Virus record (IMG/VR): IMGVR_UViG_3300036945_000814
Span: 1-64,000 of that record
Origin: a virus
Direction: 5' to 3' (one strand)
DNA length: 64,000 nucleotides
The notes beneath the pieces were generated by a model, which saw only the letters and a program-made list of their open reading frames with translations, made no database searches and was not told the origin of the DNA. Positions 2,897 to 18,922 of this stretch are shown here, piece by piece (within the stretch, counting starts at the first letter, position 1; each line of letters begins with the position of its first letter). A program made the position numbers and the translations under genes.

Positions 2897-3156
2897 CCGC
2901 CGGGGCGTGGTCCGTCAACCTCACCGATCCGTCTCGCACCAGACGCCTCACTGACGTCGAGTGCGAGGCGTTCTCGGCGCCCATGTTCATCACGGGCGCG
3001 CTGATCTGCGCCGAGGTCGTCTTTTGGAGCGCCCCGTGGTCGACGTGGATCGTGCTCGTGAGGGACCGCACGGGCCGCTCGTTCCCCGAGGGCGCCCGCG
3101 AGGTCGCCACGCACGAGCTTGACGACTACGCCCGCCTGATTCTCGGAGTGCGCTGA
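2893..3156 (+). CDS. hypothetical protein
   Basis: GTG 2893 overlaps the upstream TGA; stop abuts the polymerase ATG. Confidence 0.55.
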   Translation: MTAGAWSVNLTDPSRTRRLTDVECEAFSAPMFITGALICAEVVFWSAPWSTWIVLVRDRTGRSFPEGAREVATHELDDYARLILGVR

Positions 3157-5199
3157 ATGCTTTTCCCCGAGTACGGTTTGCTGCCAGCTCGGTTCGACGG
3201 TCGCGTCTCGGTTGTGACCGACGCCGCGGCGCTGCCGAGCTGGCACGCCCTACTCAAACGCCTCTCGGTCGAAAGCTGGGTGGCGTGGGACACCGAGACG
3301 TCAGGGTTCGACTACTTCAAGCAGGCTCGCATCATCGGGCACGTCTTCGGGTTCGATCTCGGCGACGGCCAAGGCCCGCGCGGCGTCTACTTCCCGATCC
3401 GTCACGCGACGCATGAGCAGCAGCTTCCCGTCGAGTGGGTGACGTGGATGGTGCAGGACATCCTCGGCGACCCGCGCGCGACCGTGCTCGGCCACAATCT
3501 CAAGTTTGATCTCAACTTCGCCGCCGCTGACGGCATCGTCTGTCGGGCCACGTTGCACGACACGATGATCATGATCGCGTTGCTCGACGAGAACCGGCCG
3601 AAGGAGCTGGAAAGCTGCGTCTACGACTTCGGCATCGACGAGCACGCCTACGAAATGAAGTCGGTGGTGCAGAAGATCCTCGGCGACGAGTGCAAGCGCC
3701 GCGGCTACAAAAAGAGCACGGCCCCCGGCTTCCTCTGGATCCCGCCGAGCATCCTCGGTCGCTACGGCTGCAAGGACGGCTACAACAGCCTCGCGCTCGC
3801 CGCGAAGCTCCTGCCCATGATCCACAACGGCGGCTTCGCCGAGCTGTACCAGACAGAAATGGATCTCACGCGCTACCTGCAACGCGCGGAGTTCATCGGC
3901 ACGCCCCTCGACATCCCCTACCTGCAAAACGTCCACCGCGTCGCCGAGCAGCAGGCCGACACCTTCCAGCGCGAGATCCATCGCCGTGTCGGGTTCGATC
4001 TCAAGCTGTCGAGCGACGTCGAGCTGCGGCGGTTCCTCTACGAGTCTGGCCCCGGCCGCTGTGGGTTCCCCGTCACGCACTACACGGAGAAGGGGCGACC
4101 GAAGCCGTGGGGCACCACGCCCGAGGAGCGCGCGGGCACGCCCTCGTGCGACTCGCGCGCGATCAAGGCGATGATGCGCCTCAACTGGCCGGGCACCGTC
4201 GAGGTGCTGTCGACGCTCCTGAAATGGCGCGAGCAGGACAAGATCCTGTCGACGTACACGACGCCGATGATCACCAAGAGCGACGCGAACGGGGTGCTGC
4301 ACACGTCGCTGAATCAGGTGAAGACGAACACGGGCCGCCTCTCGTCGAGCGGCCCCAACCTGCAAAACATCAAGACGCCTGACGACGAATCGAACGAGGT
4401 CGACGTCGTCAACATTCAGCGCGCGTTCCTCGTGCCCGAGGGCATGACGCGCCTGTACATCGACTTTTCACAGATCGAGCTTCGCGTGCTGGCCTTCGAG
4501 TGCCGTGATCCAACAATGGTCGCGGCGTTCATCAACAAAGAGGACATCCACACGCGCACGTCGATGGAATGCTTCAACAGCAAGGAGAAACGCTACCGAC
4601 GCATCGCCAAGGTGCTCAACTTCGGGATCAGCTACGGCATGTCGGCGATGGGCGTCATGGAGAACCTGAACGACAACGCGGACCCGGCCGCCGGCATCGA
4701 CTACGTCACCGAGGAACAAGCGCAGAGCTACTTGGATCGCTTCCACAAACGCTACCCGCGCGTCGGCGAGTGGTGCAAAGAGCTGTATGCGGACATGCGG
4801 CGGAAGAAAGATCCGTACTTCGTCAACCGCTTCGGCCGTCATCGCCGCATCCCCGAAATGAACCACGTCGGCGGCGGCCGTGGCCGTGCGGAACGGCAGG
4901 CCGTGGCGAGCTTCATTCAGGGCGAGGCCGCCGACATCAACAAGGTCGCGATGGTGCGCGTGGGCCGCCGGCTGGAGCAGGCACGAGCCCTCGGGCGCTA
5001 CAGCGGCAACCTGATCCTCACCGTCCACGACGAGAACCAGATCGACGTCGAGACGCGGTACGCCTACGAGGCTTGCATGGATCTCAAAGCCGACATGGAG
5101 CACTTCCCGCAGTTTCAACCGATCGACATCCTCGCGGCGGCCGAGTGGTCGACGACGACGTGGGCAGACAAAAAACCCGTAACGAAGAAGGCGGCATAG
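3157..5199 (+). CDS. polA: family A DNA polymerase with 3'-5' exonuclease domain
   Basis: Exo motifs WDTETSG, GHNLKFD, YGCKD; TGRLSSSGPNLQN; motif A DFSQIELR, motif B RRIAKVLNFGISYG, motif C VHDE. Confidence 0.97.
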   Translation: MLFPEYGLLPARFDGRVSVVTDAAALPSWHALLKRLSVESWVAWDTETSGFDYFKQARIIGHVFGFDLGDGQGPRGVYFPIRHATHEQQLPVEWVTWMVQDILGDPRATVLGHNLKFDLNFAAADGIVCRATLHDTMIMIALLDENRPKELESCVYDFGIDEHAYEMKSVVQKILGDECKRRGYKKSTAPGFLWIPPSILGRYGCKDGYNSLALAAKLLPMIHNGGFAELYQTEMDLTRYLQRAEFIGTPLDIPYLQNVHRVAEQQADTFQREIHRRVGFDLKLSSDVELRRFLYESGPGRCGFPVTHYTEKGRPKPWGTTPEERAGTPSCDSRAIKAMMRLNWPGTVEVLSTLLKWREQDKILSTYTTPMITKSDANGVLHTSLNQVKTNTGRLSSSGPNLQNIKTPDDESNEVDVVNIQRAFLVPEGMTRLYIDFSQIELRVLAFECRDPTMVAAFINKEDIHTRTSMECFNSKEKRYRRIAKVLNFGISYGMSAMGVMENLNDNADPAAGIDYVTEEQAQSYLDRFHKRYPRVGEWCKELYADMRRKKDPYFVNRFGRHRRIPEMNHVGGGRGRAERQAVASFIQGEAADINKVAMVRVGRRLEQARALGRYSGNLILTVHDENQIDVETRYAYEACMDLKADMEHFPQFQPIDILAAAEWSTTTWADKKPVTKKAA

Positions 5200-5200
5200 C

Positions 5201-5710
5201 ATGGATCGTGAATCAGCAGCACAGCACGTTCGCGCAGGCATGACCGGGATCGCCGCGGCGATGTCGTCAATGCGCCCGTTCACCATCAACGGCCAGACGT
5301 GGGCCGCGCAGCAGCTCATCGAGCTGCTTGTCGTCGACCCCGGCAACATCGACGTCCACATCGCGCACCTTCCTGCGTGGGTCGCGTTTTGGGGCGTCAC
5401 GAGCGGCGACGCCAAGCACAGTTTCGACGCGCACGAGGCCGCCTACCGCGTGGCCCGCGATCAATGGGCGATGAAGAAGCGCGCCGACGGCAAGATGACG
5501 AAAGACGCGCTGGACGAGGCGTGGCGCTGCACCCCGGAGTACCCGACGTGGTACGCGCAGAAGGCCGAGCTTGAGCGCGCGTGGAACGCCGCGCAGTTTG
5601 TCTACGAAGCCTTCAATCGAAAGAGCACGATGCTCTCCGCGCTGGCCCGGATGTACGCCGACGAGAAGATCGCCGGCGCCGCCGGGCGCAAGGACTACGG
5701 AGCGCGCTGA
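5201..5710 (+). CDS. UvsY-like recombination mediator (helical phage protein)
   Basis: Size, KMTKDALDEAWRCTPEY...EAFNRKSTML pattern and position between polymerase and SSB/RecA. Confidence 0.55.
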   Translation: MDRESAAQHVRAGMTGIAAAMSSMRPFTINGQTWAAQQLIELLVVDPGNIDVHIAHLPAWVAFWGVTSGDAKHSFDAHEAAYRVARDQWAMKKRADGKMTKDALDEAWRCTPEYPTWYAQKAELERAWNAAQFVYEAFNRKSTMLSALARMYADEKIAGAAGRKDYGAR

Positions 5711-5735
5711 CGACAAGCCCGCGCGCCAGCGATAG
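5711..5735 (+). promoter_or_regulatory. bipartite motif CGACAA-N12-GCGATAG, putative phage-sigma promoter upstream of SSB
   Basis: Same spacing recurs at 15613, 20440, 28427, 31299 and 34349. Confidence 0.7.
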
Positions 5736-5786
5736 AGATTCACAAGCCCACGAACGCCAGCCGAACCAACAGCAGGAGCCTCCCAG

Positions 5787-7325
5787 ATGACGCAGCCCCC
5801 GAACCCCTACGGCCCGCCGCCCGTCCACCAGCAGCAGCACGGCGTGCAGCTCGATCCCGCCCTCGCCGCCGAAATGGCGCGCTTGCAGCAGGCGGTCACG
5901 GCCCGCAGCAGCGGCCGCAGCGAGCACGAGAAGCGCGACGACGAGTGGTACGAGACGAACAAGCCCGACGCGGTCGGCCGCACGACCGAGGGCTACATCC
6001 TCGCTCTCCCGATCTCGTTGGCCTCTCCGGGCGCGCTTCCGTTCGCGATGACGGCGCAGCATCACATCACCGTGCGCGGCAAGCAGTCGTCGGTGATCTG
6101 CCCCAAGCGCGATGCGCAGATCCGAGATCCCGAGGGCCGCAACGGCCCCCCGCCTGAGTGTCCGATCTGTGACGCTGCGGAGTTCTGTTTCAAGGAAATG
6201 TACCGCTTCGAGAAGGGCACCGCCGAGGGCGAAATGTGGAAGCAGCGGGGCAAGGATCTCAACCCGCGCGACCGTTGCTTCATGAACGTCTTTGATCTCG
6301 ACAACGTGCAGGGTCACTGGAAGGTGAACGCCGAGACGGGCACCGCCGGCGCCGTGCCCAAGATTTGGGGCTTCGGCCCCGAGGTCATGAAGAAGCTCAT
6401 GGCGATTGCCGGTGAGGTCGGCCCGTTCTGGCACCCGTCCGCGTTCACGCGCCTCAAGATCCTCTGCACCCGCACCGGGACCGAGCAGCGGAACATCAAG
6501 TACGACGTCACGCTGACCATGCCGATCGCTGGCGTGCAGATCCCGCAGGGCTACGAGGGCGCGCTGCAACAGCTCATCGACATCGACTACTACCGCCGCG
6601 TCCGGCCTCTCGCCGAAATGGCCGCGTTCGTGCCCGGCTATGCGCGCGTCGGCGGTGAAGGCGGCGGCAGCATGGCCGCCCCGCCTGCGATCCCCAACCC
6701 CTACGCGCCGCCGCCCCCCAACCCCTACGCGCCCCCGCAGCAGCAGTACGCGCCGCCTCCGGCGCAGTACGCGCCCCCGCAGCAGCAGTACGCGCCGCCT
6801 CCGGCGCAGTACGCGCCACCCCCACAGGCCGCGCAGTACGCGCCCCCGGTCACGCCTCCGCCGGCACCCCCGCCGGCGCAGTACGCGCCACCCCCACAGG
6901 CCGCGCAGTACGCGCCCCCGGTCACGCCTCCGCCGGCACCCCCGCCGGCGCAGTACGCGCCACCCCCACAGGCCGCGCAGTACGCGCCGCCACCGCCGGC
7001 CCCTGCGGCCTACGCGCCTCCTGCGGCGGCCTACGCGCCCCCGCCGATGCCGGCCTACGCGCCCCCGCCCGCGGCGGCTCCCCCGCCGTACACGCCGCCG
7101 GCGGCTCCGGGCTACCCGCCTCCCCCGCCCGCCGGGCCGGCCTACTCGCCGCCGCCGGCCCCGCAGTACGCTCCGCCGGCGCCTTCGGCCCCGCCGTGGG
7201 ATCAGCAGCAGGCCGCCCCGCCCCCGGCGGCACCCCCGGTCCCTCCTATGGCGCCGCCGGCATCCTCGCCGCCGGCGCCGGCGGGAATGCCGTCGCTGCC
7301 GCCCCTGCCGCCCCTGCCGAGGTGA
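5787..7325 (+). CDS. gp32-like single-stranded DNA-binding protein with a ~220-aa Pro/Tyr/Gln-rich tail
   Basis: H..ICPK...CPIC Zn motif, RCFMNV, KIWGFG and GTEQRNIKYDV are typical of phage gp32-type SSBs; SD AGGAG; next to RecA. Confidence 0.75.
   Translation: MTQPPNPYGPPPVHQQQHGVQLDPALAAEMARLQQAVTARSSGRSEHEKRDDEWYETNKPDAVGRTTEGYILALPISLASPGALPFAMTAQHHITVRGKQSSVICPKRDAQIRDPEGRNGPPPECPICDAAEFCFKEMYRFEKGTAEGEMWKQRGKDLNPRDRCFMNVFDLDNVQGHWKVNAETGTAGAVPKIWGFGPEVMKKLMAIAGEVGPFWHPSAFTRLKILCTRTGTEQRNIKYDVTLTMPIAGVQIPQGYEGALQQLIDIDYYRRVRPLAEMAAFVPGYARVGGEGGGSMAAPPAIPNPYAPPPPNPYAPPQQQYAPPPAQYAPPQQQYAPPPAQYAPPPQAAQYAPPVTPPPAPPPAQYAPPPQAAQYAPPVTPPPAPPPAQYAPPPQAAQYAPPPPAPAAYAPPAAAYAPPPMPAYAPPPAAAPPPYTPPAAPGYPPPPPAGPAYSPPPAPQYAPPAPSAPPWDQQQAAPPPAAPPVPPMAPPASSPPAPAGMPSLPPLPPLPR
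6726..6986 (+). repeat. coding tandem repeats: 2x42 bp (6726-6809) and ~2.6x72 bp (6801-6986) encoding YAPPP units
   Basis: Exact copies visible in the sequence. Confidence 0.9.
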
Positions 7326-7519
7326 CGCGGATTCGCGGGCAGGTGTGGCTACCTGCTCGCGCTGACGGGATGCCGGTCTGCTTCGGCACGGCCGGATTCG
7401 ACGACGACGACAGATCGTGCCGCGACTGCAAGGTCGCCATGTGGTGCTCACCCGCGGCCGCAACCAAGCGACGACACACGCCGAGGCAGCAGGCCACGGC
7501 CCTACAGATCCGAGGATGA
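7322..7519 (+). CDS. small Cys4 (putative Zn-binding) protein
   Basis: GTG overlaps the SSB stop; PVCFG...DDDDRSCRDC...WC. Confidence 0.55.
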   Translation: MTRIRGQVWLPARADGMPVCFGTAGFDDDDRSCRDCKVAMWCSPAAATKRRHTPRQQATALQIRG

Positions 7520-7522
7520 TTC

Positions 7523-8710
7523 ATGGCGTTCCCACGCAAGCGCGGCGGCAAAGCAGCGGCCACAGCGGCAACGAACAAAGCGGCGAAGGCGCCGGCGAAA
7601 GCCGCGCCGACGGCAAAGAGCACGCCGGCGACCAAAGGCGCCAAGGGCAAGCTCCTTGACTTCGACGACGCCCTCGCCGCGCTTGTGAAGGGAGCGCCGA
7701 GCGGCGGCGACGCGCAAACGCTGCTCGGCGCCGAATCGCTCGACGATCTGTGGAGCAAGCCGCGCCACTACTTGAGCACGCGCTCGGTGGCCCTCGACGC
7801 CATCATCGGCGTCCCCGGCATCCCAAGCGGGCGCCTGACCGAGATTTACGGAGCGGAGGCCGCCGGCAAGTCGACCATCGTCGACCAGCTCATCGCCGAG
7901 ACGCAGAGCCGCGGCGGGCTCGCTGCCCTTGCCGACACCGAGCACGCCCGCGACTTGAGCTACATGGCGCGTCTCGGCGTCGACATCGAGCGAATGCCGT
8001 CGATCCAAGCTCACTCCATCGAAAGCGTGTTCGAGCATCTTCGGTATTGGGCCATCAAGGGCCGCGAAGCCCTCGGCCCCGACGTGCCCATGCTGTACGT
8101 CTGGGACAGCGTCGCCGGCACGCCGACGCGCGCCGAAATGAACGCCAGCGTCGATCAGAAGTTTCAGGCGGAGGCGGCCAAGGTCATCAAGCAGCAGTTT
8201 CGCGCCGTCACGCAGATCATCGCCGAGCATCAAGTCGCGTTCGTCTGCACGAACCAAGTCTACAAGAAAATGGGCAACTTTTTCGGTCCCGAGGATGAGA
8301 CGTATGGCGGTGGCGGGATCAAGTACCACGCGACCCTGCGCATCGGACTTCGGTACGCCGGGCAGGTGAAGCCCCGAGGGGCATCGGCCGAAGACCGCGT
8401 GCCGCAGATCGGCCAGCTCGTCGAGGCCAAAGTCACCAAGAACAAGATCGCGCCGCCGAACCGCTGGCGGAAGTTTGGGATCATCTACGGCTATGGCGTC
8501 GACAACACATGGTCGTTGTTCACCGATCTGCAAGGCAACGGCATCGCGCAAAGCGGGTCGTGGTTCTCGCTGACCGAAGAGGTGCAGGACGCCGTCGGCA
8601 TCAAGGTGCCGTCGTGGCAGGGCGGTCACTTCGGCCTCGCCGACGTGCTGCGCGAGCACCCCGCCCTCTACGCCAAGCTGCTCACCCTCTACGCGGAGAA
8701 GTGCAAATGA
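7523..8710 (+). CDS. recA: RecA/UvsX recombinase with Lys/Ala-rich N-terminal extension
   Basis: GIPSGRLTEIYG, Walker A GAEAAGKST, DTEHA, VWDSVA, TNQV, GGGGIKYHA, KNKIAPP. Confidence 0.96.
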   Translation: MAFPRKRGGKAAATAATNKAAKAPAKAAPTAKSTPATKGAKGKLLDFDDALAALVKGAPSGGDAQTLLGAESLDDLWSKPRHYLSTRSVALDAIIGVPGIPSGRLTEIYGAEAAGKSTIVDQLIAETQSRGGLAALADTEHARDLSYMARLGVDIERMPSIQAHSIESVFEHLRYWAIKGREALGPDVPMLYVWDSVAGTPTRAEMNASVDQKFQAEAAKVIKQQFRAVTQIIAEHQVAFVCTNQVYKKMGNFFGPEDETYGGGGIKYHATLRIGLRYAGQVKPRGASAEDRVPQIGQLVEAKVTKNKIAPPNRWRKFGIIYGYGVDNTWSLFTDLQGNGIAQSGSWFSLTEEVQDAVGIKVPSWQGGHFGLADVLREHPALYAKLLTLYAEKCK

Positions 8711-8910
8711 GCGGAGCCGTCGACACCACCAACAAGCACCTCGTCTCGACAATCGACGGCGGCGACGTCGTCATCATCAACCCGCCGCCGCGGCTGGCGC
8801 GCATGAGCCGCGTTGACGCGCTCACGTTCGCTGCTTGGATCGTCGTCGTCGCCGACACCGGCGACGACCCCACCTTCGCCGAGATTCGCGAAGCCATCGA
8901 GGGCACATGA
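8707..8910 (+). CDS. hypothetical protein
   Basis: ATGA coupling at both ends. Confidence 0.6.
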   Translation: MSGAVDTTNKHLVSTIDGGDVVIINPPPRLARMSRVDALTFAAWIVVVADTGDDPTFAEIREAIEGT

Positions 8911-9404
8911 ACCAGCCTGCCACCAAGCGACCACGAGGCCCTGCGCGGATGCGGCTCGACTCCCTCGACGGGAGCCTGACCGGCATGAGCAACGTGCTGC
9001 TCGATCGCGCGCGCACCTATCTCACAGGCGACGAGGTCTTCGAGGAGCTGTACCGGCACGCGGTGCAGCTTGAAAAGGACGTCGACGAAGGCGACGACGG
9101 CGAACGCATCGACGACTTGCAGATCGAGAAGAAGGCGTTGTTCAAGGGCGCCCGAGAGGCAGTCAAAGACCTCACAGAGAAGCACAAGGCGTATGAGGCC
9201 GCGGTGCGCCGCCTTGTCGACCTCAACGACAAGCTCTCTGCGCTCGCGGACAAGTGCGACGGCACCATCGCCGATGGGATCAACCTCAAGGAAGCGATCG
9301 ACGCGATCCACGACGATCTCGACGACGCGATCGGCGACATCCCCGACACCCAAGAGCCGATCGACGAGCTTCAGGGCGTCATCGACGACACGACCGAGGA
9401 CTGA
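8907..9404 (+). CDS. acidic coiled-coil hypothetical protein
   Basis: ATGA coupling; heptad-like D/E/L-rich sequence. Confidence 0.65.
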   Translation: MNQPATKRPRGPARMRLDSLDGSLTGMSNVLLDRARTYLTGDEVFEELYRHAVQLEKDVDEGDDGERIDDLQIEKKALFKGAREAVKDLTEKHKAYEAAVRRLVDLNDKLSALADKCDGTIADGINLKEAIDAIHDDLDDAIGDIPDTQEPIDELQGVIDDTTED

Positions 9405-9405
9405 C

Positions 9406-10422
9406 GTGATCATTTTTTCGGACCTCCACCTTGAGCCCAAGAGCGCCGAGACGGCGCTTGAGGTGCTTCGTCGCATCCCTGACGTGTGCAGGGCGCGGAA
9501 GGACAAGCACGTCGCGTTCCTCGGCGACTTCTGGATGGTCCGCCACACGCTGCCGGTGAAGCTGGCGCTCGACGCGCGCGACATCATGCGCTCGTGGTTC
9601 ACCTCGGGCGCCGTGGATCGGTTCGACGTTCTCGTCGGCAACCACGATCAGATCGACCTCGACGGGCGCAACGCGCTTGAGGTGTTCGACGACCTCGGGC
9701 ACGGCACCGTCGTCCACACCGAGCCCGGCTGGACGCCGGCCGGGTTCTGGCTGCCATACCGGCACACGCACGACGAGATCCGCGAGATCCTGCGGGCGGC
9801 GACGGCGACGGCGCGCAACGAGCCGCCCGTGTTGTTCGCGCACATCGGCCTGCTCGGCGCGTGGATGAACAACACCAAGCGCGACGACTTCGGCTTCCCC
9901 GCCAGCGAGATCGTCGACCTCGGATTCAAGCGCGTGTTCTGCGGCCACTACCACCGGCACAACATGGTGCAGAAGGGCGTGCTCTACGTCGGGTCGCCGT
10001 ATCAGGTGAGCTACGCCGAGGCCGATCAGGAGAAGGGCGTCCTCTCGTGGGACGGCCAGCGATCCGAGTTCATCCCGTGGGAGGTCGGCGCGCGCCACTA
10101 CAAGGTCGTGTTCGACGCCGACCACCCGGCGGCACTGGAAATGCCCCGCGTTCGCCCCGGTGACAAGCTGTGGGTCGTCGTCAAGGGCCAGATGGCCGGC
10201 GCCGCGCAAAAGGCCGTGCAGGACAACCTCACCGCGCTGGGCATCACCCCTGCGCGCATCGACGTCGACTTGCAGCCGGAGCTTGCCGCGGCCCGCATCG
10301 ACATCCGCCCCGAGGAAACCCGCGCGCAGCTCGCCGCGCGCTACGTCGCCGCGCAGGACATCCCCGAGGACTACCGCGCGCTCTTGCTCACCACGCTCGC
10401 CACCGTCACGAAGGCCCCATGA
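9406..10422 (+). CDS. sbcD: SbcD/Mre11 metallophosphoesterase nuclease
   Basis: FSDLH, LGD, VGNHD, FAH, GHYH, YVGSP motifs; GTG at 9406 after GAGGA (the ORF-track start at 9070 is too long). Confidence 0.93.
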   Translation: MIIFSDLHLEPKSAETALEVLRRIPDVCRARKDKHVAFLGDFWMVRHTLPVKLALDARDIMRSWFTSGAVDRFDVLVGNHDQIDLDGRNALEVFDDLGHGTVVHTEPGWTPAGFWLPYRHTHDEIREILRAATATARNEPPVLFAHIGLLGAWMNNTKRDDFGFPASEIVDLGFKRVFCGHYHRHNMVQKGVLYVGSPYQVSYAEADQEKGVLSWDGQRSEFIPWEVGARHYKVVFDADHPAALEMPRVRPGDKLWVVVKGQMAGAAQKAVQDNLTALGITPARIDVDLQPELAAARIDIRPEETRAQLAARYVAAQDIPEDYRALLLTTLATVTKAP

Positions 10423-10739
10423 GCGAAGCCGGTAACGCTCGCCGTTTGCGCGAGATCGAAAGGCGCGTCAGCCGCGCCACGTTCGCTCCGTGGTCTGTCG
10501 GCGACGACGCCGGCATCCGCCGGGGAGGTATCCGGTTGTTCGAGGGCGTGAAGGGCGGCGAGCAGGATCGCGACAACGCGCATTTTGTCGCCGCTGCACG
10601 GGACGACATCCCGTGGCTTCTGGCGCGTGTCGCGCAGCTTGAGGCCGCGTTGCAGACGCTCCCGAAGAACCCTTCGCGCAGCGCCATGAACGCGCTCGCC
10701 TTGGACGCGCTTGAGCGCGACCCGATTGACGAGGAATAG
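10419..10739 (+). CDS. Ead/Ea22-like small phage protein
   Basis: RATFAPW...DNAHFVAAARDDIPWLLARV pattern. Confidence 0.6.
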   Translation: MSEAGNARRLREIERRVSRATFAPWSVGDDAGIRRGGIRLFEGVKGGEQDRDNAHFVAAARDDIPWLLARVAQLEAALQTLPKNPSRSAMNALALDALERDPIDEE

Positions 10740-12752
10740 ATGCGCCTGCTCCACCTCACTGCTACCAACTTCGGCCCGTTCGCCGACCCCGGCGTCGACC
10801 TCGACCTCGCAGGGCAAGGGCTCGTCGCCGTCGTCGGCACCAACCGCACCGACCCCGGATTCGACGCCAACGGCGTCGGCAAGAGCAGCATCCTCGACGC
10901 GCTCATGTGGGCGCTGTTTGGCGAGACGGGCGCCCGCCGCGAGACGTCGAGCAACGACAGCGGGCTCAAGGGCGATGAGGTCGTCAACGAGCGCGCCGGC
11001 AAGGACTGCGTCGTCGTCGTCGACTTCGCGCGCGACAACGGGCAAGTCGTGCGCGTGCGCCGCTGGCGTCGCGCCAAGCCGGACGCCGACAGCAAGCGCG
11101 GCAGCGGCGTCGACGTTGCGGAGCGCGTTCACGAGGGAACGTCGGTGGCGTTCGTGCAGGTTGCCAACCTCGACAAGAGCAACGTGCAGGCCGCCATCGA
11201 CTCGCGACTCGGGTTCGATCGCACACTGTTTTGCCAGACGGTTGTTCGCGGGCAGGAGGACACGTTTTCGTTCGCGCAGGCCACGCCCAAAGAGCGGTTC
11301 GACATCCTCACGCAGATCGAAGACCTGTCGGAGCTGGACGCATGGGACGAGAGGTTTCGAGCCCGCGCGCGCTTGCTCGCTCACGAGCTGGCGGTCCTGT
11401 CCGGTGCGACCCGCGGCAAAGAGGCCACGATCACCGTCTACCGCGAGCAGGCCGTCCGCGACGCCGACGCCGCCGAGCGGTGGGAAAGCGACAGGCAGGG
11501 ACGCCTCGGTGAGCTGCACCGGCGCCACGGCGCCGCGCTCGGCGCCCTCGCCGAAGTCGACGCCCGCTTGGCGACCAAGGCCGACCACGGCGTGCGCCTT
11601 GCCGGCGTCGACGCCGCCCTCGCCGCCCTACAGCCGCCGGCAGAGCCCGCCGACCTCGCCGCGTGGGAGCAGCATCACCGCGAGCTGCAAGCGCAGCTCG
11701 GGGCAGCCCGCGGCGAACGGGACCGGATCTCGGCCAAGCTCACGCGCATGGCCGCGCAGCGTGAAGGTGAGTGCGAGTCGTGCGGGCAGGCCGTGACCGG
11801 CGATCACCTCACCGCGCACCGCGGGCAGCTTGAAGCCGACGCCTACGCCGCCAACGTGAAGCTCACCACGGTTTCGTCGTTGGCCAACGACGCCGCCGCC
11901 GTCATCCGTACCGCCCGACAAGCCTACGAGCAGGCACGGGCCGCTGTGCAGGCGCAGCGCGGGCAACTGGAGTACGAGCGCGGGCAACTGCTCGGCGCTC
12001 TCGGCGCCGCGCGGGCCGAAGAGGCCGGTCGCGCGCGCATCGTCGAGCAGCTTGTGCGCCTCGATGCCGACGTCGCATCGACGGCCAGCGCCGCCAACCC
12101 CGTGCAGGCCGTGTCCGCCGACCGTGAGGCCGTGCTTGCGGGCCTTGAGGCCGAGCTTGCCGCCGCCAAGGCCGCGGAGTCTGGCAAGGCCGCCGAGGCG
12201 GGCCTGTGCGAGTGGTGGACGCGCAATATCCCGTCGCTCAAGGCATGGATCTTCGACAGCGTCGTCGGGGAGATCACCCGCGAGGCAAACCGCTGGCTGT
12301 CGGTGCTCACCGGCGGCCTGTGCTGGGTCGAGGTCACGGCGACGTCGACCACGAAGGCCGGCGACGTGCGCGACAAGATCGGGCTCAAGTGCCTGCGCTG
12401 GAACCCTGACGGGACGACGACCGAGCGCGAGTACCGCCAATGGAGCGGCGGCGAAAAGCGGCGCATCGCACTGGCGATCGATTGGGCGCTCGCCCACCGT
12501 CTCGGCCAGCGGTCCAAGGGCGTCTGCACGTTCCTCGCGCTCGACGAGGTGGACCGACACCTTGACGCCGGAGGACGTTCCGGGCTCCTATCTGCCATTG
12601 ACATTCTTCGTCGCGAGAAGGAGAGCATTATTATCGTGTCTCACGATCCAGACTTCCGCGCGAAGCCCGACGTGACATGGCGTGTGATCAAACAATCGAC
12701 GGGTTCCGTCGTGGAGGTTTCAAGTGGTCGAAAAGATCAAAGCAAAGCATGA
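10740..12752 (+). CDS. sbcC: SbcC/Rad50 SMC-like ATPase
   Basis: NFGPF, Walker A NGVGKSS, Q-loop, coiled coil with CESC zinc hook, WSGGE signature, LALDE Walker B, IVSH. Confidence 0.95.
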   Translation: MRLLHLTATNFGPFADPGVDLDLAGQGLVAVVGTNRTDPGFDANGVGKSSILDALMWALFGETGARRETSSNDSGLKGDEVVNERAGKDCVVVVDFARDNGQVVRVRRWRRAKPDADSKRGSGVDVAERVHEGTSVAFVQVANLDKSNVQAAIDSRLGFDRTLFCQTVVRGQEDTFSFAQATPKERFDILTQIEDLSELDAWDERFRARARLLAHELAVLSGATRGKEATITVYREQAVRDADAAERWESDRQGRLGELHRRHGAALGALAEVDARLATKADHGVRLAGVDAALAALQPPAEPADLAAWEQHHRELQAQLGAARGERDRISAKLTRMAAQREGECESCGQAVTGDHLTAHRGQLEADAYAANVKLTTVSSLANDAAAVIRTARQAYEQARAAVQAQRGQLEYERGQLLGALGAARAEEAGRARIVEQLVRLDADVASTASAANPVQAVSADREAVLAGLEAELAAAKAAESGKAAEAGLCEWWTRNIPSLKAWIFDSVVGEITREANRWLSVLTGGLCWVEVTATSTTKAGDVRDKIGLKCLRWNPDGTTTEREYRQWSGGEKRRIALAIDWALAHRLGQRSKGVCTFLALDEVDRHLDAGGRSGLLSAIDILRREKESIIIVSHDPDFRAKPDVTWRVIKQSTGSVVEVSSGRKDQSKA

Positions 12753-13242
12753 GCCGGAGTGGCATCTGCTCGAAGGTTTCTTCACGCGCGAAGACGGCAT
12801 GGAGCCCGCGAGCATCGACGGCGTGCCCGTGCTCATCCCCGGCAAGCTCGGGGAAGTCCCCGTGATCCAGATTCCCGCGTCGGCGACGCCCGACGTGTTC
12901 GATCGGATCTCCAAGGCCGTCATTGAAGCCGCCGGCGTCGAGCCGTTCATCATCACGAGCAACGTGCAGATTCTCCGGTTCAAGCGAATCAGCGAGAAGA
13001 AGGCGAAGGCGATGATGGCGAAGACGAAAGAGCAACTGAGCAGAATCGGAGCAGAGCGTGATCGACTTCAAGGCGAAGATGAAGCAGCCGCCGACGCCGA
13101 CGCCGAAGAGGGCGATGGGGATGGATCTGAGCCCGACGGGCTCGGCGTTGGTGACGCTGGAGCAGACGGAGCCGAGGGGGCCGGTGACGGTGGTGGCGAT
13201 GACGCTGCTCAACCGGGGCTCGTCGAAGAACAAGAAGCCTGA
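12724..13242 (+). CDS. hypothetical protein with a long acidic C-terminal tail overlapping the resolvase gene
   Basis: GGAGG SD before the GTG; globular N-terminus; D/E/G tail. Confidence 0.7.
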   Translation: MVEKIKAKHEPEWHLLEGFFTREDGMEPASIDGVPVLIPGKLGEVPVIQIPASATPDVFDRISKAVIEAAGVEPFIITSNVQILRFKRISEKKAKAMMAKTKEQLSRIGAERDRLQGEDEAAADADAEEGDGDGSEPDGLGVGDAGADGAEGAGDGGGDDAAQPGLVEEQEA

Positions 13243-13741
13243 CGACGCGAACCTCAAGGGGTTCTCGACGGCCAACCTCGCCTACGTCGGCGCCGCCGTC
13301 GGGTACGAGCTGTCGACGCGCAAGCCCGGCATCGTCTGCCTTGAGGACTACTCCGGCGGCCACGGCCCGCAGGCGATCCACCTCCCGTTCATCGGTGAGG
13401 TGGGCGGCGTCGCGAAGCTGTGGATGCACCAGACGCAGGTGCGGTGGTACGAGCTGGCCGCGTCGACGCTCAAGAAGTTCGTCACGGGCTCCGGCGCCGG
13501 CAAGAAAGAGCAAATGTGGCTCGGCGCCTATAAGCGGTGGGGCGTCGACGCCACCGTGCTCGGCGACGACAACAACGTGCTCGACGCCTACTGCCTCGCC
13601 CGCGCCGGCCTCGCCCTCTTGTGGCACGAGGAAGATCCATCGACGATGACGAAGACCGACGCCGTCGCGCTCAAGCCGATCCGCGTCGGCGGATCGCCGC
13701 GCTTGAAGAAACCGAAAGCCAAGAAAGGGATCGACGAATGA
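13058..13741 (+). CDS. ruvC: RuvC-like Holliday junction resolvase (start may be 13079 or 13115)
   Basis: MGMDLSPTGSAL, VCLEDY, GEVGG, LKKFVTGSGAGKKEQM, DDNNVLDAY. Confidence 0.88.
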   Translation: MIDFKAKMKQPPTPTPKRAMGMDLSPTGSALVTLEQTEPRGPVTVVAMTLLNRGSSKNKKPDDANLKGFSTANLAYVGAAVGYELSTRKPGIVCLEDYSGGHGPQAIHLPFIGEVGGVAKLWMHQTQVRWYELAASTLKKFVTGSGAGKKEQMWLGAYKRWGVDATVLGDDNNVLDAYCLARAGLALLWHEEDPSTMTKTDAVALKPIRVGGSPRLKKPKAKKGIDE

Positions 13742-15646: not shown

Positions 15647-15988
15647 ATGACAAAACGAAAGACCCCGGCCGATGTCCGCCTTGCAGGCGGCGCCATGACC
15701 TTCGCAATGCTGCACGGCGACCACGCCGCGGCCACAGCCGCGCTCGTCGAGAAGTACGCCCGTCGGATCCAAGCCAGCCCCGCCGACGACGCGCGAGGAC
15801 ACCTCGTCCAGTTCGCCACCGAAGCCTTTGGAGGCTTCTGCGACCGCACGGCGGCCGGCTTCGTCGCGTGGGTCGAGGAGGGCGGCATTCAGTGCCCGTC
15901 GTGCGACGAAGGCACGGCGGAAATGCACCGCATCGACGACGAGGGAGGCTTTGCTTGCGCCGCCTGCGGCTACAAAGAGACGAGGTGA
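15647..15988 (+). CDS. hypothetical protein with C-terminal Zn ribbon
   Basis: CPSC...CAACG. Confidence 0.65.
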   Translation: MTKRKTPADVRLAGGAMTFAMLHGDHAAATAALVEKYARRIQASPADDARGHLVQFATEAFGGFCDRTAAGFVAWVEEGGIQCPSCDEGTAEMHRIDDEGGFACAACGYKETR

Positions 15989-16257
15989 GCGACGACGTCA
16001 TGCTCATCCTGACAGGCAGCGAGCACCGTCGGCTCGTCGAGCTGGCGTTGCGGACGCTCACGATCGACAGCATCGACGACGAGACGCACCTATTCATCCG
16101 CAAGCTCGTCCACCCACGACAGATCCAAGACATAGGAATAGGAGACGCCCACCATGACGACGACGACAACGACAAAGCCTGCCAAGTCCCCCCGCAAACG
16201 CAAAGCGGCTGCCCCCGGTGCGGATGCCCCGTCGGCTCCCGATTCATCCGTCGCTGA
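15985..16257 (+). CDS. hypothetical protein overlapping the clamp gene start
   Basis: GTGA coupling; the 3' part overlaps 16154. Confidence 0.4.
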   Translation: MSDDVMLILTGSEHRRLVELALRTLTIDSIDDETHLFIRKLVHPRQIQDIGIGDAHHDDDDNDKACQVPPQTQSGCPRCGCPVGSRFIRR

Positions 16258-17485
16258 CGACGGCGGCACGCTGGCCCGGATCCATGCCGCCGGCATCGCC
16301 TCTCTGGCGCCATCGTCGGCAATGGAGCCGCAGGCGCAGAGCCTCACGCGCGCGGACGCGGACGACGCTGCCGCCGATGCCGCCGCCGCCGAAGAGGCGG
16401 GCTCGCTGCTCGCGTCAGCCCTCGCGAGGGCCTTGAGGTTCGCGGACAAGGAGCGCGCCCTCGTCCGGCTCACCAGCGGGAGCGTGACGGCCACCAGCCC
16501 GCGGGGCACCATCATCGTGCCGTGGGATGCGCCCACGTTGCCCGCTGACGGCGTTGTGGTCGATGGCCGGCGGCTGCACCGCTGCCTGCGTGCCGCCGGC
16601 CCTGTCGCGCAGCTCCGGGTCGACAGCGCGCGGCTTGTCGTCAGCTTCGGCGCTCGTCGGTTCTCGCTCGCGCTCGTGCCCGAGCAGATCGACGCGCACG
16701 TCCCCACACGGGACGGCGTCGACTTTCAGCCGTTCTTCCCGTCGGTGTTCCGCGCGGCCGCGGCCTTTTCGGGCGACGACAAGATCGAGCCGCCGGAGCT
16801 GAGTGGCGTGAACATTTCCCGCGGCGGCTGCATCGCGTGCGATCGGCGTGGCCTCATCGCCACCACCGGCGCCACCGGCGCGCAGCTCGTGATCACGCTG
16901 CCTCGTGACACGTTCGACGGGCTCTCGGTCGGCGAGGATGGATCCGACGTCGTCTACCTTGGGGTTTCCTCCGAGGGCCACGCCGTCATCGTCGACCCGC
17001 GCACGGGAGAATGGCGCGTCGTCGTCGCGTGGTCGCCGTCGTTCCCTGACGTGCGTGGCGTGCTCTCTCGGTGGGATGCGGCCCTGACGGTCGACATCGA
17101 CAAGGCTGCTTTCGTCTCGGCGCTCAAGCAGTTTCGGATCGTGCAGTCGGCGGGCTCGTCGGTGAAGTTTCGCGTGTGGACGACAGCGCCCGCCGACGGG
17201 GCGGCGGCCGGCGACTGGATCGAAATGGAGGGCGGCGACCCCGGCGTCGCGTGCCAGTTTGTCGCGCGTCTCGGCGTGCGGATTCAGCGCCTCACGCCCG
17301 TCGGCGTGCCCGGCCACGACACGAGCATGATCCGCGTGTGCTTCGCCCTCGACGAGCTGTTGAAGCTCGCCGCCGCTCACCCCGGCGACGTGGTGCGCCT
17401 CGGCTTCGGCAAGGACGAACGCTCGCCCCTCATCGTCAAGAACGCCGCCTTCGAGGCCGGCGTGATGCCGATGGTGGACAGGTAG
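16154..17485 (+). CDS. dnaN: divergent DNA polymerase III beta sliding clamp homologue
   Basis: ELSGVNI...IACDRRGL (cf. LNGV...ATDGHRL), FPDVRGVL, IDKAAFVSALK, VCFALDELL, C-terminal GVMPM; SD AGGAG. Confidence 0.7.
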   Translation: MTTTTTTKPAKSPRKRKAAAPGADAPSAPDSSVADDGGTLARIHAAGIASLAPSSAMEPQAQSLTRADADDAAADAAAAEEAGSLLASALARALRFADKERALVRLTSGSVTATSPRGTIIVPWDAPTLPADGVVVDGRRLHRCLRAAGPVAQLRVDSARLVVSFGARRFSLALVPEQIDAHVPTRDGVDFQPFFPSVFRAAAAFSGDDKIEPPELSGVNISRGGCIACDRRGLIATTGATGAQLVITLPRDTFDGLSVGEDGSDVVYLGVSSEGHAVIVDPRTGEWRVVVAWSPSFPDVRGVLSRWDAALTVDIDKAAFVSALKQFRIVQSAGSSVKFRVWTTAPADGAAAGDWIEMEGGDPGVACQFVARLGVRIQRLTPVGVPGHDTSMIRVCFALDELLKLAAAHPGDVVRLGFGKDERSPLIVKNAAFEAGVMPMVDR

Positions 17486-17487
17486 CC

Positions 17488-17709
17488 ATGTTCGATGGGC
17501 AGCTCGTCATCGACTTTGCGACCGAGCTGCGGCGCCCCCCGCCGGGGTGGGCGTACTGCCCGTGCAGCAAGCTCGTGTCGCTCGCCGACGAGCCGGCCTT
17601 TGCCGAGGACGCGGCGGGCAACATGCGCGCATGGCACCGGCTGTGCCGCATGGCCGAGCACGACGAGCAACGCGCCAAGCGCGCACGACGGAGGCTGCAC
17701 GGTGTTTGA
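17488..17709 (+). CDS. small protein starting MFDGQLVIDF, with a Cys/His cluster
   Basis: ATG 2 nt after the clamp stop; CPC...HRLC. Confidence 0.6.
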   Translation: MFDGQLVIDFATELRRPPPGWAYCPCSKLVSLADEPAFAEDAAGNMRAWHRLCRMAEHDEQRAKRARRRLHGV

Positions 17710-18037
17710 GGGTCAACTGCTCATCGACTTCGGTATCACCGTCGCGTCCGCGTCGCCGCCTGCTCGCGCGTCGGCGCTCTCGACGTCGTCGGCGTCCTAC
17801 GCCGCGGCTGTCGCCACCGGGCAGCTTTCCAAAGCGCGTGCCGAGGTGGTGGAGGCGCTGAGAATGGCCGGCCCGATGACAGGGGCGGAGCTTGACGCAT
17901 GGATGACGGATCGCGGAGGCCGAGGGCACTACCACAAGAGGCTGTCCGAGCTGCGCCGCGCTGGCGCGGCGACGGACGACGGGGCGAGGCCCTGCCGCGT
18001 CACGGGGCGCAAGGCGCTTGTGTGGCGGGCGCTGTAG
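17702..18037 (+). CDS. small winged-helix protein starting MFEGQLLIDF
   Basis: GGAGG SD; GPMTGAEL...HKRLSELRRAG...RPCRVTGRKALVW. Confidence 0.65.
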   Translation: MFEGQLLIDFGITVASASPPARASALSTSSASYAAAVATGQLSKARAEVVEALRMAGPMTGAELDAWMTDRGGRGHYHKRLSELRRAGAATDDGARPCRVTGRKALVWRAL

Positions 18038-18046
18038 CCTCGGCTC

Positions 18047-18922
18047 ATGGACAAGCTCACCTCGTTCGTTTTCTCGGGCTCGGGCACGCGCCTGTTCGCT
18101 TTCATCGGCGCCCTGCGCGTGTTGTTCGCCGCCGGCTACAGACCGAAGCAGCTCATCGGCACCAGCGGAGGCGGGCTCATCGCGCTGTTCATCGCAGCGC
18201 ACTACGACCCCCGCGAGCCGATGGCAGTCCTCGACAAGCTCGAAGCGTTCGCGCGCGGCTTGCAGATCGGGAAGCTGCTCGACCCCGCATGGTTCCCGCG
18301 CTGGCCGCGGTACTGGCATGGGCCGTACAAGGGCGCGCGCATCCGCGCCAAGCTCGACGAGGCCCTGCCCGCGAAGTGGACCGACATGAAGCTGCCCGTC
18401 TTCGTGGTGACCAGCGACCGTAACGGCGACGTGGCGAAGGTGTGGGGCGAAGCCGACGGCATCGCTCCCGCTCTCGCAGGCCGTGCGACGATGTCGCTCC
18501 CCATCTTCGACGCCGTGGAGATCCAAGGGCACTACCACACCGACGGCGGCACGCGGGCCAACTATCCTCTCTCGTTCTTCGGCGACGACGAGAACGTCGT
18601 CGGGCTGCGCTTCCGACCCCTCGCCCACAAGGCCATCGCCGGGCCGGGCGAGAAGGCGCCGTCGGTGCAGACGTTCGCCAACACTGTCGAGTTCAACATC
18701 GACAACATCGACGACATGATCGAAGCGACGTCGCGGATGCACATGGCCGCCGCGCAGAAGGCATCGACCATCATGCTCGACGTGCCCGGCAGCGGCATGG
18801 ACTTCGACGTCGACGACGAGGACATCACCCGCCAGATCCAAGCGGGGGCCGCGAGCGCGAAGAAGTGGCTCACCGCCCGCAATCGCAATCCGGCGACGCC
18901 AGATCCGGGTGGGCTCTACTAA
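18047..18922 (+). CDS. patatin-like phospholipase
   Basis: FSGSG oxyanion loop, GTSGG nucleophile elbow, TMSLP, DGG catalytic Asp, NYP. Confidence 0.9.
   Translation: MDKLTSFVFSGSGTRLFAFIGALRVLFAAGYRPKQLIGTSGGGLIALFIAAHYDPREPMAVLDKLEAFARGLQIGKLLDPAWFPRWPRYWHGPYKGARIRAKLDEALPAKWTDMKLPVFVVTSDRNGDVAKVWGEADGIAPALAGRATMSLPIFDAVEIQGHYHTDGGTRANYPLSFFGDDENVVGLRFRPLAHKAIAGPGEKAPSVQTFANTVEFNIDNIDDMIEATSRMHMAAAQKASTIMLDVPGSGMDFDVDDEDITRQIQAGAASAKKWLTARNRNPATPDPGGLY

What the first reader, a model, noticed from the sequence alone, without database searches (positions are those of the whole stretch)
16154..18037. Phage beta-clamp homologue followed by two mini-proteins that both start with a clamp-binding-like motif
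Seen: 17488 starts MFDGQLVIDF and 17702 starts MFEGQLLIDF, and the rest of the two proteins is unrelated (Cys/His cluster versus winged helix). Known: hexameric clamp-binding motifs are of the QLxLxL/F type (DinB QLVLGL, Hda QLSLPL). Inference: a clamp plus dedicated riders or inhibitors. A family A polymerase does not normally require a beta clamp and no loader is visible in this window, so the clamp may serve transcription or act as a decoy.
Basis: partly seen in the sequence, partly recalled or inferred. Interest (0 to 1): 0.7.

Follow-up and report, generated by a model that had tools for sequence, protein, structure and literature searches.

The report
Phage sliding clamp with tagged riders
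An uncultured 107-kb phage encodes a very divergent DNA sliding clamp but no clamp loader, and the small unrelated genes directly after it all begin with the same short peptide, which looks like the hook that bacterial proteins use to dock on a sliding clamp; binding has not been measured.

Summary
ORF 16154-17485 has no Pfam or PHROG hit. Its AlphaFold model matches bacterial DnaN beta clamps (Foldseek E 1e-20, TM 0.75), and a family profile aligns to E. coli and M. tuberculosis DnaN, keeping several residues that line the peptide cleft (TD..L, FPD..V, C-terminal MPM).

The next two ORFs are translationally coupled. They start MFDGQLVIDF and (GTG) FEGQLLIDF and are otherwise unrelated: a CCHC zinc mini-protein and a winged-helix protein. 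The motif fits the hexapeptide clamp-binding consensus and lies in a disordered tip. It is conserved in orthologues despite synonymous DNA differences. No other protein in the genome has it.

In the one related contig I could fetch, a third unrelated small protein sits between clamp and mini-protein 1 and starts MKRRGQLPLDL. The slot after the clamp therefore takes exchangeable tagged proteins.

The complete genome has no clamp loader, and its family A polymerase has no clamp motif.

Best reading (0.6): small DNA-binding proteins tethered to the phage and/or host clamp. This resembles Mu MuC/Mor and T4 gp33/gp55, on a phage-encoded beta-type clamp. Binding and function are untested.

The scan has noted clamp-docking tags in other genomes. 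I found no sequence relative of this one in earlier notes.

The parts
16154..17485 (+). Divergent beta-type (DnaN-fold) sliding clamp, 443 aa. The three-domain clamp core spans about residues 85-443.
   Evidence: No Pfam or PHROG hit. The AF2 model (pLDDT 72) matches bacterial DnaN structures (Foldseek E 1.6e-20, TM to target 0.75) and annotated phage beta clamps. The family profile hits the M. tuberculosis clamp at E 6.7e-8. hhalign to E. coli DnaN gives 91.5%, E 8.7e-7. The C-terminus GVMPMVDR aligns to E. coli VVMPMRL.
16154..16408 (+). N-terminal extension of the clamp, about 85 aa and disordered. It has a basic head (KSPRKRK, an S/TPKK-like motif), a conserved [RK][IL]HxxG motif, and then an acidic Ala/Asp/Glu stretch.
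   Evidence: pLDDT is below 50 for residues 1-68. The extension is kept across the family; the first 25 residues have net charge +3 to +11 in most members, and P0018 has repeated SPAKK/TPAKK.
17488..17709 (+). Mini-protein 1, 73 aa: N-terminal tag, short Pro-rich linker, CCHC putative zinc module, basic tail.
   Evidence: GC3 is 0.86. Four orthologues at 59-88% identity all keep G-Q-x-x-I-D-F at the N-terminus, plus C24, C26, H50 and C53. No family hit.
17497..17517 (+). Tag of mini-protein 1: G-Q-L-V-I-D-F (residues 4-10).
   Evidence: Fits the consensus Q-aliphatic-x-[L/M]-x-[F/L], with I at position 4. It is invariant at G, Q, I, D and F in the orthologues.
17702..18037 (+). Mini-protein 2, 111 aa, GTG start: N-terminal tag, Ala/Ser/Pro-rich linker of about 28 aa, winged helix-turn-helix.
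   Evidence: PHROG 1123, E 3e-11, over residues 17-110 only. In the AF2 model residues 1-28 have pLDDT below 50 and the fold is confident from about residue 45. Weak Foldseek hits are all winged-helix proteins: TFE-alpha, MarR, PadR, ScpB. Its homologues P0029 and P0030 lack the N-terminal tag.
17711..17731 (+). Tag of mini-protein 2: G-Q-L-L-I-D-F (residues 4-10).
   Evidence: The peptide matches mini-protein 1, with 5 synonymous and 3 non-synonymous nucleotide differences over the first 10 codons besides ATG/GTG. No further copy in six frames of the genome.

Best explanation
ORF 16154 encodes a phage-borne, bacterial-type (DnaN-fold) sliding clamp. It keeps several residues that line the canonical peptide-binding cleft between domains II and III and the C-terminus, and it has gained a basic/acidic N-terminal tail.

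The small genes translationally coupled to its 3' end encode adaptor proteins. Each has a G-Q-(L/R)-x-(I/L)-D-(F/L) clamp-binding motif at its N-terminal tip, then a flexible linker, then a small nucleic-acid-binding-type domain (CCHC zinc module, winged helix, or an unknown domain in a relative).

The motif docks these proteins in the cleft of the phage clamp and possibly also the host beta clamp. They are then carried on, or recruited to, replicating phage DNA. The slot after the clamp gene accepts exchangeable tagged proteins.

The phage has no clamp loader. The clamp would therefore be loaded by the host loader, which uses the same cleft, or held on DNA by its basic tail.

Shown: the fold, the remote homology, partial conservation of the cleft, the conservation, portability and disorder of the motif, and the absence of a loader.
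Inferred: binding, the binding partner, and the biological role. The most plausible role is coupling a regulatory step such as late transcription to replication, as in Mu and T4.
For: Clamp identity:
- Foldseek E 1e-20 to many DnaN structures and to phage beta clamps.
- Profile hits to DnaN.

Cleft (with family alignment):
- IACDRRGLIA aligns to E. coli VATDGHRLAV. T172 is C here and T in most of the family; L177 is kept.
- FPDVRGVL aligns to FPDYRRVL, with P242 and V247 kept.
- VMPM aligns to VMPM (M362, P363, M364).

Motif:
- Only these two of 87 proteins have a terminal consensus motif, with P about 9e-6 for both ORFs after the clamp.
- Orthologues P0009-P0012 keep it.
- Synonymous differences between the two copies show selection on the peptide.
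- It sits in a disordered tip.
- Homologues of the mini-protein 2 domain lack it, so it is an add-on.

Portability:
- In L001 a third, unrelated 109-aa ORF lies between the clamp and mini-protein 1. It starts V-KRRGQLPLDL, where QLPLDL is an exact QLxLxL.
- Both L001 ORFs overlap their upstream stops by GTGA.

Precedents:
- MuC has QHDLF at residues 2-6, and Mor/C family members have N-terminal CBMs needed for transcription (PMC12867686).
- T4 gp33 and gp55 share the polymerase's clamp epitope (PMC2988020).
- E. coli alpha has QVELEF, and the hexapeptide consensus is stated in bioRxiv 10.64898/2026.09.19.751633.

No loader.
Against: - No binding test or complex model was possible.
- Position 4 of the motif is Ile in the window, where the consensus has Leu or Met. 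Position 2 is Arg in two orthologues.
- The residue aligned to E. coli N320 (N336 in M. tuberculosis, which binds the motif's Gln) is Arg or Lys in this family, and R176 is Gly. The cleft is therefore not identical.
- The comparative support rests on one fetched related locus, plus one more inferred from a shared contig length (P0004 and P0011).
- No replication enzyme of the phage carries the motif, so the clamp's classical polymerase client is unidentified.
- Three cultured phages with canonical clamps show no such tagged neighbours.
Confidence: 0.6

Rival explanations
1. The tagged mini-proteins target the host's beta clamp, not the phage clamp. They occupy its clefts to shut down or redirect host replication and repair, while the divergent phage clamp escapes them or replaces the host clamp.
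For: The motif fits the general bacterial consensus. An IMG/VR pattern scan found the same N-terminal GQLxIDF on small orphan proteins in four other phages (L054, L042, L101, L033). Those phages have no detectable clamp of either type, so in them only a host partner is available. MuC overexpression is toxic through the host clamp (PMC12867686). Phages are known to inhibit host clamps (Twort Gp168, PMC8565349).
Against: The tagged genes are translationally coupled to the phage clamp gene in both loci, and the exchangeable slot is exactly there. The phage clamp keeps much of the cleft, so it is unlikely to be blind to the motif. The cargo domains look like DNA-binding modules rather than mere plugs. 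The four outside examples are few and partly expected by chance. This rival does not exclude the best explanation.
Confidence: 0.2
2. The shared N-terminal peptide is not a clamp-binding motif. It is a tag for another common partner or process, such as another phage protein, a protease or chaperone, or a requirement of coupled translation initiation.
For: The motif is short and low in information. Consensus-like hexapeptides occur 8 times in the proteome. Ile at position 4 and Arg at position 2 are atypical. No binding data exist.
Against: The position next to a clamp gene, the exact QLPLDL in the relative, conservation of the anchor positions Q1, L/I4 and F/L6, the disordered context, and synonymous variation that argues against an RNA-level signal. 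The peptide does not resemble the known N-terminal ClpX recognition motifs (my own knowledge, not tested).
Confidence: 0.15
3. The resemblance is a by-product of a recent local duplication of a gene start, or of wrong gene calls, and has no function.
For: The two copies lie only 214 nt apart.
Against: The DNA differs at 9 of 30 positions while 8 of 10 residues are kept. GC3 supports both frames. Orthologues at 59-88% identity keep the tag. A third unrelated ORF in L001 carries it with different codons.
Confidence: 0.03

Closest known systems
Phage Mu MuC and Mor (Mor/C family late and middle transcription activators) acting through the host beta clamp (PMC12867686)
   Same: These are small helix-turn-helix phage proteins with a clamp-binding motif at the very N-terminus (MuC has QHDLF at residues 2-6; the family consensus is Qx[D/E][L/M]F). 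The motif is portable and needed for function.
   Different: Mu uses the host clamp and encodes none. Here the tagged genes are coupled to a phage-encoded clamp. The motif is a hexapeptide (QLxIDF or QLPLDL). The cargo domains are not Mor/C (no Pfam or PHROG hit to that family). Function is untested.
Phage T4 gp45 clamp with gp33 and gp55 (and gp43) sharing one clamp-binding epitope (PMC2988020)
   Same: A phage-encoded clamp. Two small unrelated proteins carry the same terminal clamp epitope on a flexible linker. The clamp gene lies downstream of Mre11/Rad50-type genes in both genomes.
   Different: T4 gp45 is a PCNA-like trimer with its own loader (gp44/62), and its epitopes are C-terminal. 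Here the clamp is a three-domain DnaN type, no loader is encoded, the tags are N-terminal, and the polymerase lacks the tag.
Bacterial beta clamp (DnaN) and its clients with QL[SD]LF or QLxLxL motifs, such as Hda (N-terminal QLSLPL), Pol IV (QLVLGL) and Pol III alpha (QVELEF)
   Same: Three-domain fold, several cleft-lining residues kept, C-terminal MPM. The motif fits Q-aliphatic-x-[L/M]-x-[F/L]. An N-terminal position is known from Hda.
   Different: Only 15-20% identity. The Pfam DnaN models miss it. It has an extra 85-aa N-terminal tail and a near-neutral core (pI about 7, against 5.25 for E. coli). N320 and R176 are not kept.
Phage polIII-beta homologues, some in genomes without clamp loaders (Kazlauskas and Venclovas 2011, PMC3201878; many annotated phage beta clamps in BFVD)
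   Same: A phage-encoded beta-type clamp without a loader and with a less acidic surface, which that paper links to direct DNA binding.
   Different: This family is undetectable with the standard models. It is rare: 18 clusters among 1.8 billion representatives, none in cultured phages. It comes with tagged mini-proteins. Three canonical phage clamps that I inspected have no such neighbours.
Staphylococcus phage Twort Gp168, a small phage protein that inhibits the host beta clamp (PMC8565349)
   Same: A small phage protein aimed at a beta clamp.
   Different: Gp168 blocks the DNA channel and has no cleft-binding motif, and there is no phage clamp next to it.

Membership tests
Bacterial-type beta sliding clamp (DnaN / Pol III beta) | Three tandem clamp domains (DnaN fold) | tested here: met
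   AF2 model with three beta-alpha-beta-beta-beta x2 domains. The top 500 PDB hits are DnaN chains, best E 1.6e-20 and TM to target 0.75. BFVD hits are phage beta clamps.
Bacterial-type beta sliding clamp (DnaN / Pol III beta) | Sequence homology to DnaN | tested here: met
   Only at profile level: hmmsearch of the family profile against PDB gives E 6.7e-8, and hhalign to E. coli DnaN gives 91.5%, E 8.7e-7. The single sequence and the Pfam DnaN models find nothing.
Bacterial-type beta sliding clamp (DnaN / Pol III beta) | Hydrophobic peptide-binding cleft (E. coli T172, L177, P242, V247, M362-M364, plus N320, R176) | tested here: inconclusive
   By alignment, L177, P242, V247, M362, P363 and M364 are kept. 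T172 is Cys here and Thr in most of the family. R176 is Gly and N320 is Arg/Lys.
Bacterial-type beta sliding clamp (DnaN / Pol III beta) | Head-to-tail homodimeric ring around DNA | not testable with these tools
   Only single-chain prediction was available.
Bacterial-type beta sliding clamp (DnaN / Pol III beta) | Cognate AAA+ clamp loader in the same genome | tested here: not met
   PF13177 and PF00004 found nothing in six frames of the complete genome, while the controls were positive. Walker A motifs occur in the RecA-like protein, the terminase and the DnaB-like protein, and otherwise only in proteins that do not look like loaders. A host loader may serve.
Clamp-binding-motif clients (QL[SD]LF / QLxLxL) | Sequence fits Q-aliphatic-x-[L/M]-x-[F/L] | tested here: met
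   QLVIDF and QLLIDF are near-consensus, with Ile at position 4. QLPLDL in L001 is exact. Orthologues have QRLIDF and QLEIDF. The consensus is as quoted.
Clamp-binding-motif clients (QL[SD]LF / QLxLxL) | Motif in an exposed, disordered terminal or linker segment | tested here: met
   Residues 1-28 of mini-protein 2 have pLDDT below 50 and are followed by an Ala/Ser/Pro linker. Pro-rich linkers follow the tag in mini-protein 1 and in the L001 protein.
Clamp-binding-motif clients (QL[SD]LF / QLxLxL) | Anchor positions conserved while neighbouring residues vary | tested here: met
   G, Q, I/L, D and F/L are invariant in seven sequences from three unrelated cargo families. Positions 2 and 3 vary.
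Clamp-binding-motif clients (QL[SD]LF / QLxLxL) | Physical binding to the clamp cleft | not testable with these tools
   No multimer prediction or experiment was possible. The clamp and mini-protein genes are in different frames, so no natural read-through fusion could be folded.
Clamp-coupled transcription factors (T4 gp33/gp55; Mu Mor/C) | Small factor with a terminal clamp epitope | tested here: met
   See the rows above.
Clamp-coupled transcription factors (T4 gp33/gp55; Mu Mor/C) | Homology to gp33, gp55 or Mor/C, or binding to RNA polymerase or late promoters | tested here: not met
   Only the homology half was tested. There is no Pfam or PHROG hit to these families. Mini-protein 2 is a generic winged helix. 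Binding to RNA polymerase or promoters could not be tested. The resemblance is functional analogy only.

The most novel reading that the evidence does not exclude
This phage runs a private beta-type clamp as a mobile platform for regulation rather than for its own polymerase. The clamp is loaded on replicating phage DNA by the host loader or held by its own basic tail. It carries exchangeable N-terminally tagged DNA-binding mini-proteins that switch on late genes or mark replicated DNA. That would be a DnaN-based counterpart of T4 gp45-gp33-gp55, with a plug-in gene slot after the clamp. The same N-terminal tag would be a widespread phage device for riding host clamps.
Probability: 0.2. Interest if true: 0.8.

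Novelty: new variant of a known kind. Interest (0 to 1): 0.6.

Why it matters
Sliding clamps are the hubs of DNA replication, and use of the clamp for transcription has so far been shown for T4 and, in 2026, for Mu. This locus would add a third arrangement: a phage-encoded, bacterial-type clamp with no loader, no tagged polymerase, and a gene slot that takes interchangeable tagged mini-proteins.

The idea is directly testable with three small proteins and a few peptides. The work also defines a clamp family that standard annotation misses, and a simple N-terminal signature (M-x(0-8)-G-Q-x-x-[IL]-D-[FL]) that could flag clamp-riding proteins among the many small unknown phage genes.

Tried and rejected
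Searches for related loci:
I could not fetch the contigs of the 20-odd clamp relatives from Logan and ENA, so the comparative test rests on L001.
- IMG/VR scans with the clamp alignments and with the mini-protein 1 alignment found no relative.
- Cultured phages have no tblastn match to the clamp or to mini-protein 2 and its homologue.
- 'Relatives' are not defined for a virus record.

Family and feature searches:
- Pfam and PHROGs give nothing for the clamp, mini-protein 1 or the L001 protein.
- The protein Atlas gave only weak leads: winged-helix families for mini-protein 2 and small zinc fingers for mini-protein 1.
- I looked for a clamp motif on the phage PolA and the other replication proteins and found none.
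- I looked for tagged small genes around canonical clamps of Caulobacter phage Sansa, Mycobacterium phage DS6A and Arthrobacter phage Richie and found none.

Rejected readings:
- Recent duplication, because of the synonymous differences.
- A longer mini-protein 2 starting at ATG 17495, because of its codon-position GC pattern.
- The 387-aa database start of the clamp, because the N-terminal tail is conserved across the family.
Full report
**Setting.** The window is the first 64 kb of a single 107,025-bp IMG/VR virus record with 67% GC, which CheckV rates 100% complete. Almost all genes are on the + strand.

The replication and recombination genes are:
- family A polymerase with 3'-5' exonuclease, 3157-5199
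- RecA-like protein, 7523-8710
- Mre11/Rad50-like pair, 9070-12752
- RuvC-like resolvase, 13058-13741
- at the other end of the contig, a UvsW-like helicase, a DnaB-like helicase and a primase

The finding lies at the 3' end of this block. No promoter-like or convincing terminator-like site occurs between 12.5 and 18.9 kb. A strong promoter-like site (10 of 12 positions) follows at 18983.

**The observation.** ORF 16154-17485 has 443 codons and AGGAGA upstream. ORF 17488-17709 has 73 codons and starts MFDGQLVIDF. ORF 17702-18037 has 111 codons, a GTG start, GGAGG 8 nt upstream, and begins FEGQLLIDF.

Third-position GC is 0.87, 0.86 and 0.83 in these frames. The in-frame extension of the third ORF back to 17495 has a non-coding GC pattern. 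Public gene calls use the same starts.

The two 30-nt starts differ at nine positions, five of them synonymous, so the peptide is under selection and not the DNA. Beyond residue 12 the two proteins show no similarity. The motif occurs nowhere else in six frames of the genome.

Among 87 called proteins, only these two have a consensus clamp-binding motif within 16 residues of an end. About 0.26 N-terminal cases are expected, and P is about 9e-6 for both ORFs after the clamp.

**The clamp.**
- The single sequence hits nothing in Pfam, PHROGs or PDB sequences.
- Only eight close relatives turned up among 5.8 billion clusters, and 18 among 1.84 billion representatives. None are in cultured phages, in IMG/VR apart from this record, or in the reference prokaryote genomes.
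- An AlphaFold model built on the eight-sequence alignment has mean pLDDT 72. Residues 1-68 are disordered and the rest forms three clamp domains.
- Foldseek finds at least 500 PDB matches, and every match listed is a DnaN chain. The best is the M. tuberculosis clamp at E 1.6e-20, TM 0.75 and 15-20% identity. In the viral library it matches annotated phage beta clamps.
- A 23-sequence family profile hits a mycobacterial clamp (PDB 8dj6) at E 6.7e-8. hhalign to E. coli DnaN gives 91.5% probability over residues 66-365.

In that alignment three cleft segments line up:
- IACDRRGLIA pairs with VATDGHRLAV.
- FPDVRGVL pairs with FPDYRRVL.
- GVMPMV pairs with VVMPMR.

The hydrophobic cleft residues L177, P242, V247 and M362-P363-M364 are therefore kept. 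T172 is Cys here and Thr in most relatives. R176 is Gly, and N320, which binds the motif's Gln, is Arg/Lys. The cleft is present but not identical.

**The N-terminal tail.** The whole family has an 85-aa N-terminal tail. It has a basic head with S/TP[KR][KR] motifs, a conserved [RK][IL]HxxG, and then an acidic Ala/Asp/Glu stretch. The core is near neutral (pI about 7, against 5.25 for E. coli DnaN).

This fits the pattern described for viral clamps without loaders, which are less acidic and are proposed to bind DNA directly (PMC3201878).

**No loader, no tagged polymerase.** Six-frame searches of the complete genome with DNA_pol3_delta2 and AAA found nothing, while all controls were positive. 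Walker A motifs occur in the RecA-like protein, the terminase and the DnaB-like helicase. The remaining matches are in proteins that do not look like loaders.

The polymerase and the other replication proteins have no clamp-motif-like sequence, terminal or internal.

**The mini-proteins.**
- Mini-protein 1 has four orthologues at 59-88% identity. All keep G-Q-x-x-I-D-F within the first ten residues, together with C24, C26, H50 and C53. This suggests a CCHC zinc module followed by a basic tail.
- Mini-protein 2 matches PHROG 1123 (unknown function) only from residue 17 on. Its model has a disordered tip (residues 1-28) and linker, then a confident winged helix-turn-helix. The weak PDB matches are all winged-helix proteins.
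- The two detectable homologues of mini-protein 2 start directly with the folded domain and lack the tag. One of them ends in QGDLF, which fits the Mu-type motif Qx[D/E][L/M]F. This is a lead only.

**The related locus.** L001 is a 10.3-kb metagenome contig, collinear with the window from the Rad50-like gene to the dUTPase-like gene, and its clamp is 64-66% identical.

Two small ORFs follow its clamp there, each overlapping the upstream stop by GTGA:
- a 109-aa protein found nowhere in the window, which starts V-KRRGQLPLDLGAW
- the mini-protein 1 orthologue, which starts V-TLVGQRLIDF

QLPLDL is an exact QLxLxL. Mini-protein 2 and the patatin-like gene are absent from L001, and a PAPS-reductase-like gene takes their place.

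In the two loci, then, every small gene directly after the clamp carries the tag, and none of the later genes does. There are four such ORFs from three unrelated cargo families. A third locus probably has the same pairing, because P0004 (clamp) and P0011 (mini-protein 1) both come from a 17,393-bp contig.

**Interpretation.** The consensus quoted in the recent literature is Q-aliphatic-x-[L/M]-[F/L] or Q-aliphatic-x-[L/M]-x-[F/L]. Examples are QLVLGL (Pol IV) and QVELEF (Pol III alpha).

The invariant positions here (Q1, I/L4, F/L6) are the anchor positions of that consensus. The variable positions are 2 and 3. The tag is terminal and disordered.

N-terminal motifs on small phage regulators now have a direct precedent. 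MuC carries QHDLF at residues 2-6, Mor/C family members have N-terminal motifs, and mutating them abolishes clamp binding and clamp-activated late transcription (PMC12867686). T4 gp33 and gp55 share the polymerase's clamp epitope on flexible linkers (PMC2988020).

The best reading is therefore a phage clamp with small tethered adaptor proteins. The cargo is DNA-binding in type rather than enzymatic, and the polymerase is untagged. Together these point to a regulatory or DNA-marking role rather than processive synthesis by PolA. This last step is inference.

**Which clamp do the tags bind?** A degenerate DNA scan of IMG/VR for GQLxIDF returned mostly internal matches in unrelated structural proteins. 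It also found four small orphan proteins that start with the tag at credible gene starts:
- L054: MGQLTIDF, with a strong Shine-Dalgarno sequence
- L042: MPDRTGQLVIDF, with a stop codon two codons before the ATG
- L101: MPPSDGQLEIDF, upstream of terminase genes in a provirus
- L033: MKDPNSPPGQLEIDF

L042 has only sub-threshold winged-helix hints in Pfam. L101 looks helix-turn-helix-like only by eye. Their genomes have no detectable clamp of either type.

This is a small sample. About two N-terminal cases would be expected by chance among the roughly 45 distinct contexts. If it is real, the tag can work with host clamps, so the host clamp remains a possible or additional partner in the present phage.

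**Verdict.** This is a new variant of a known kind:
- The clamp family is new to the standard libraries.
- The architecture has not been described to my knowledge: a loader-less beta-type phage clamp followed by a slot of N-terminally tagged, exchangeable mini-proteins.
- The principle, clamp-binding tags on small phage proteins, is known.

Earlier notes of this scan describe similar clamp-docking tags in other genomes. None is a sequence relative of this locus.

Noticed in passing
window 16154-16408: The clamp family has a conserved N-terminal tail of about 85 aa. It has a basic head with S/TP[KR][KR] motifs (P0018 has repeated SPAKK/TPAKK), a conserved [RK][IL]HxxG motif, and an acidic Ala/Asp/Glu stretch. 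It could be a DNA-binding or self-regulating appendage of a clamp that has no loader.
   Followed up: partly
window 16154 versus 16322: The public gene call for the clamp (P0001, 387 aa) starts at Met57. The longer 443-aa form is supported by conservation of the tail across the family.
   Followed up: yes
window about 15985-16257: A small ORF (MLILTGSEHRRLVEL...IQDIG) lies between the zinc-ribbon protein and the clamp. It is conserved in L001 (4794-5144) and overlaps the clamp start by about 100 nt in another frame. Its function is unknown.
   Followed up: no
window 18047-18922: A patatin-like phospholipase (Pfam E 2e-19) directly follows mini-protein 2. It is absent from the related contig L001, where a PAPS-reductase-like gene (phrog_424) sits instead. 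The region after the clamp is a variable cargo zone.
   Followed up: partly
P0029 (homologue of mini-protein 2): This homologue lacks the N-terminal tag but ends in ...SRQGDLFASEITG. QGDLF fits the Mu MuC-type motif Qx[D/E][L/M]F, so this winged-helix family may carry clamp tags at either end.
   Followed up: no
L054 217-540; L042 2119-2436 (-); L101 8005-8385 (-); L033 1032-1340: Small orphan proteins in four other IMG/VR phages start with M-x(0-8)-GQLxIDF at credible gene starts. No clamp is detectable in those genomes. The N-terminal clamp tag may be widespread.
   Followed up: partly
L127 1078-3606 (Arthrobacter phage Richie gp78): The helicase/methylase encoded two genes upstream of that phage's canonical beta clamp ends in ...KQDMPSLFDLEDLSDAS. 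This resembles a C-terminal clamp-binding tail.
   Followed up: no
window 33581-33883: A 100-aa protein ends in FIDDDLPF, an SSB-tip-like motif, as another first-reader note says. I saw the C-terminus in my listing of protein termini.
   Followed up: no
G000 101763-106531 and window 1-13741: The replication module runs across the ends of the linear record (helicases and primase at the 3' end, polymerase and SSB at the 5' end). This is consistent with a complete, circularly permuted genome.
   Followed up: partly
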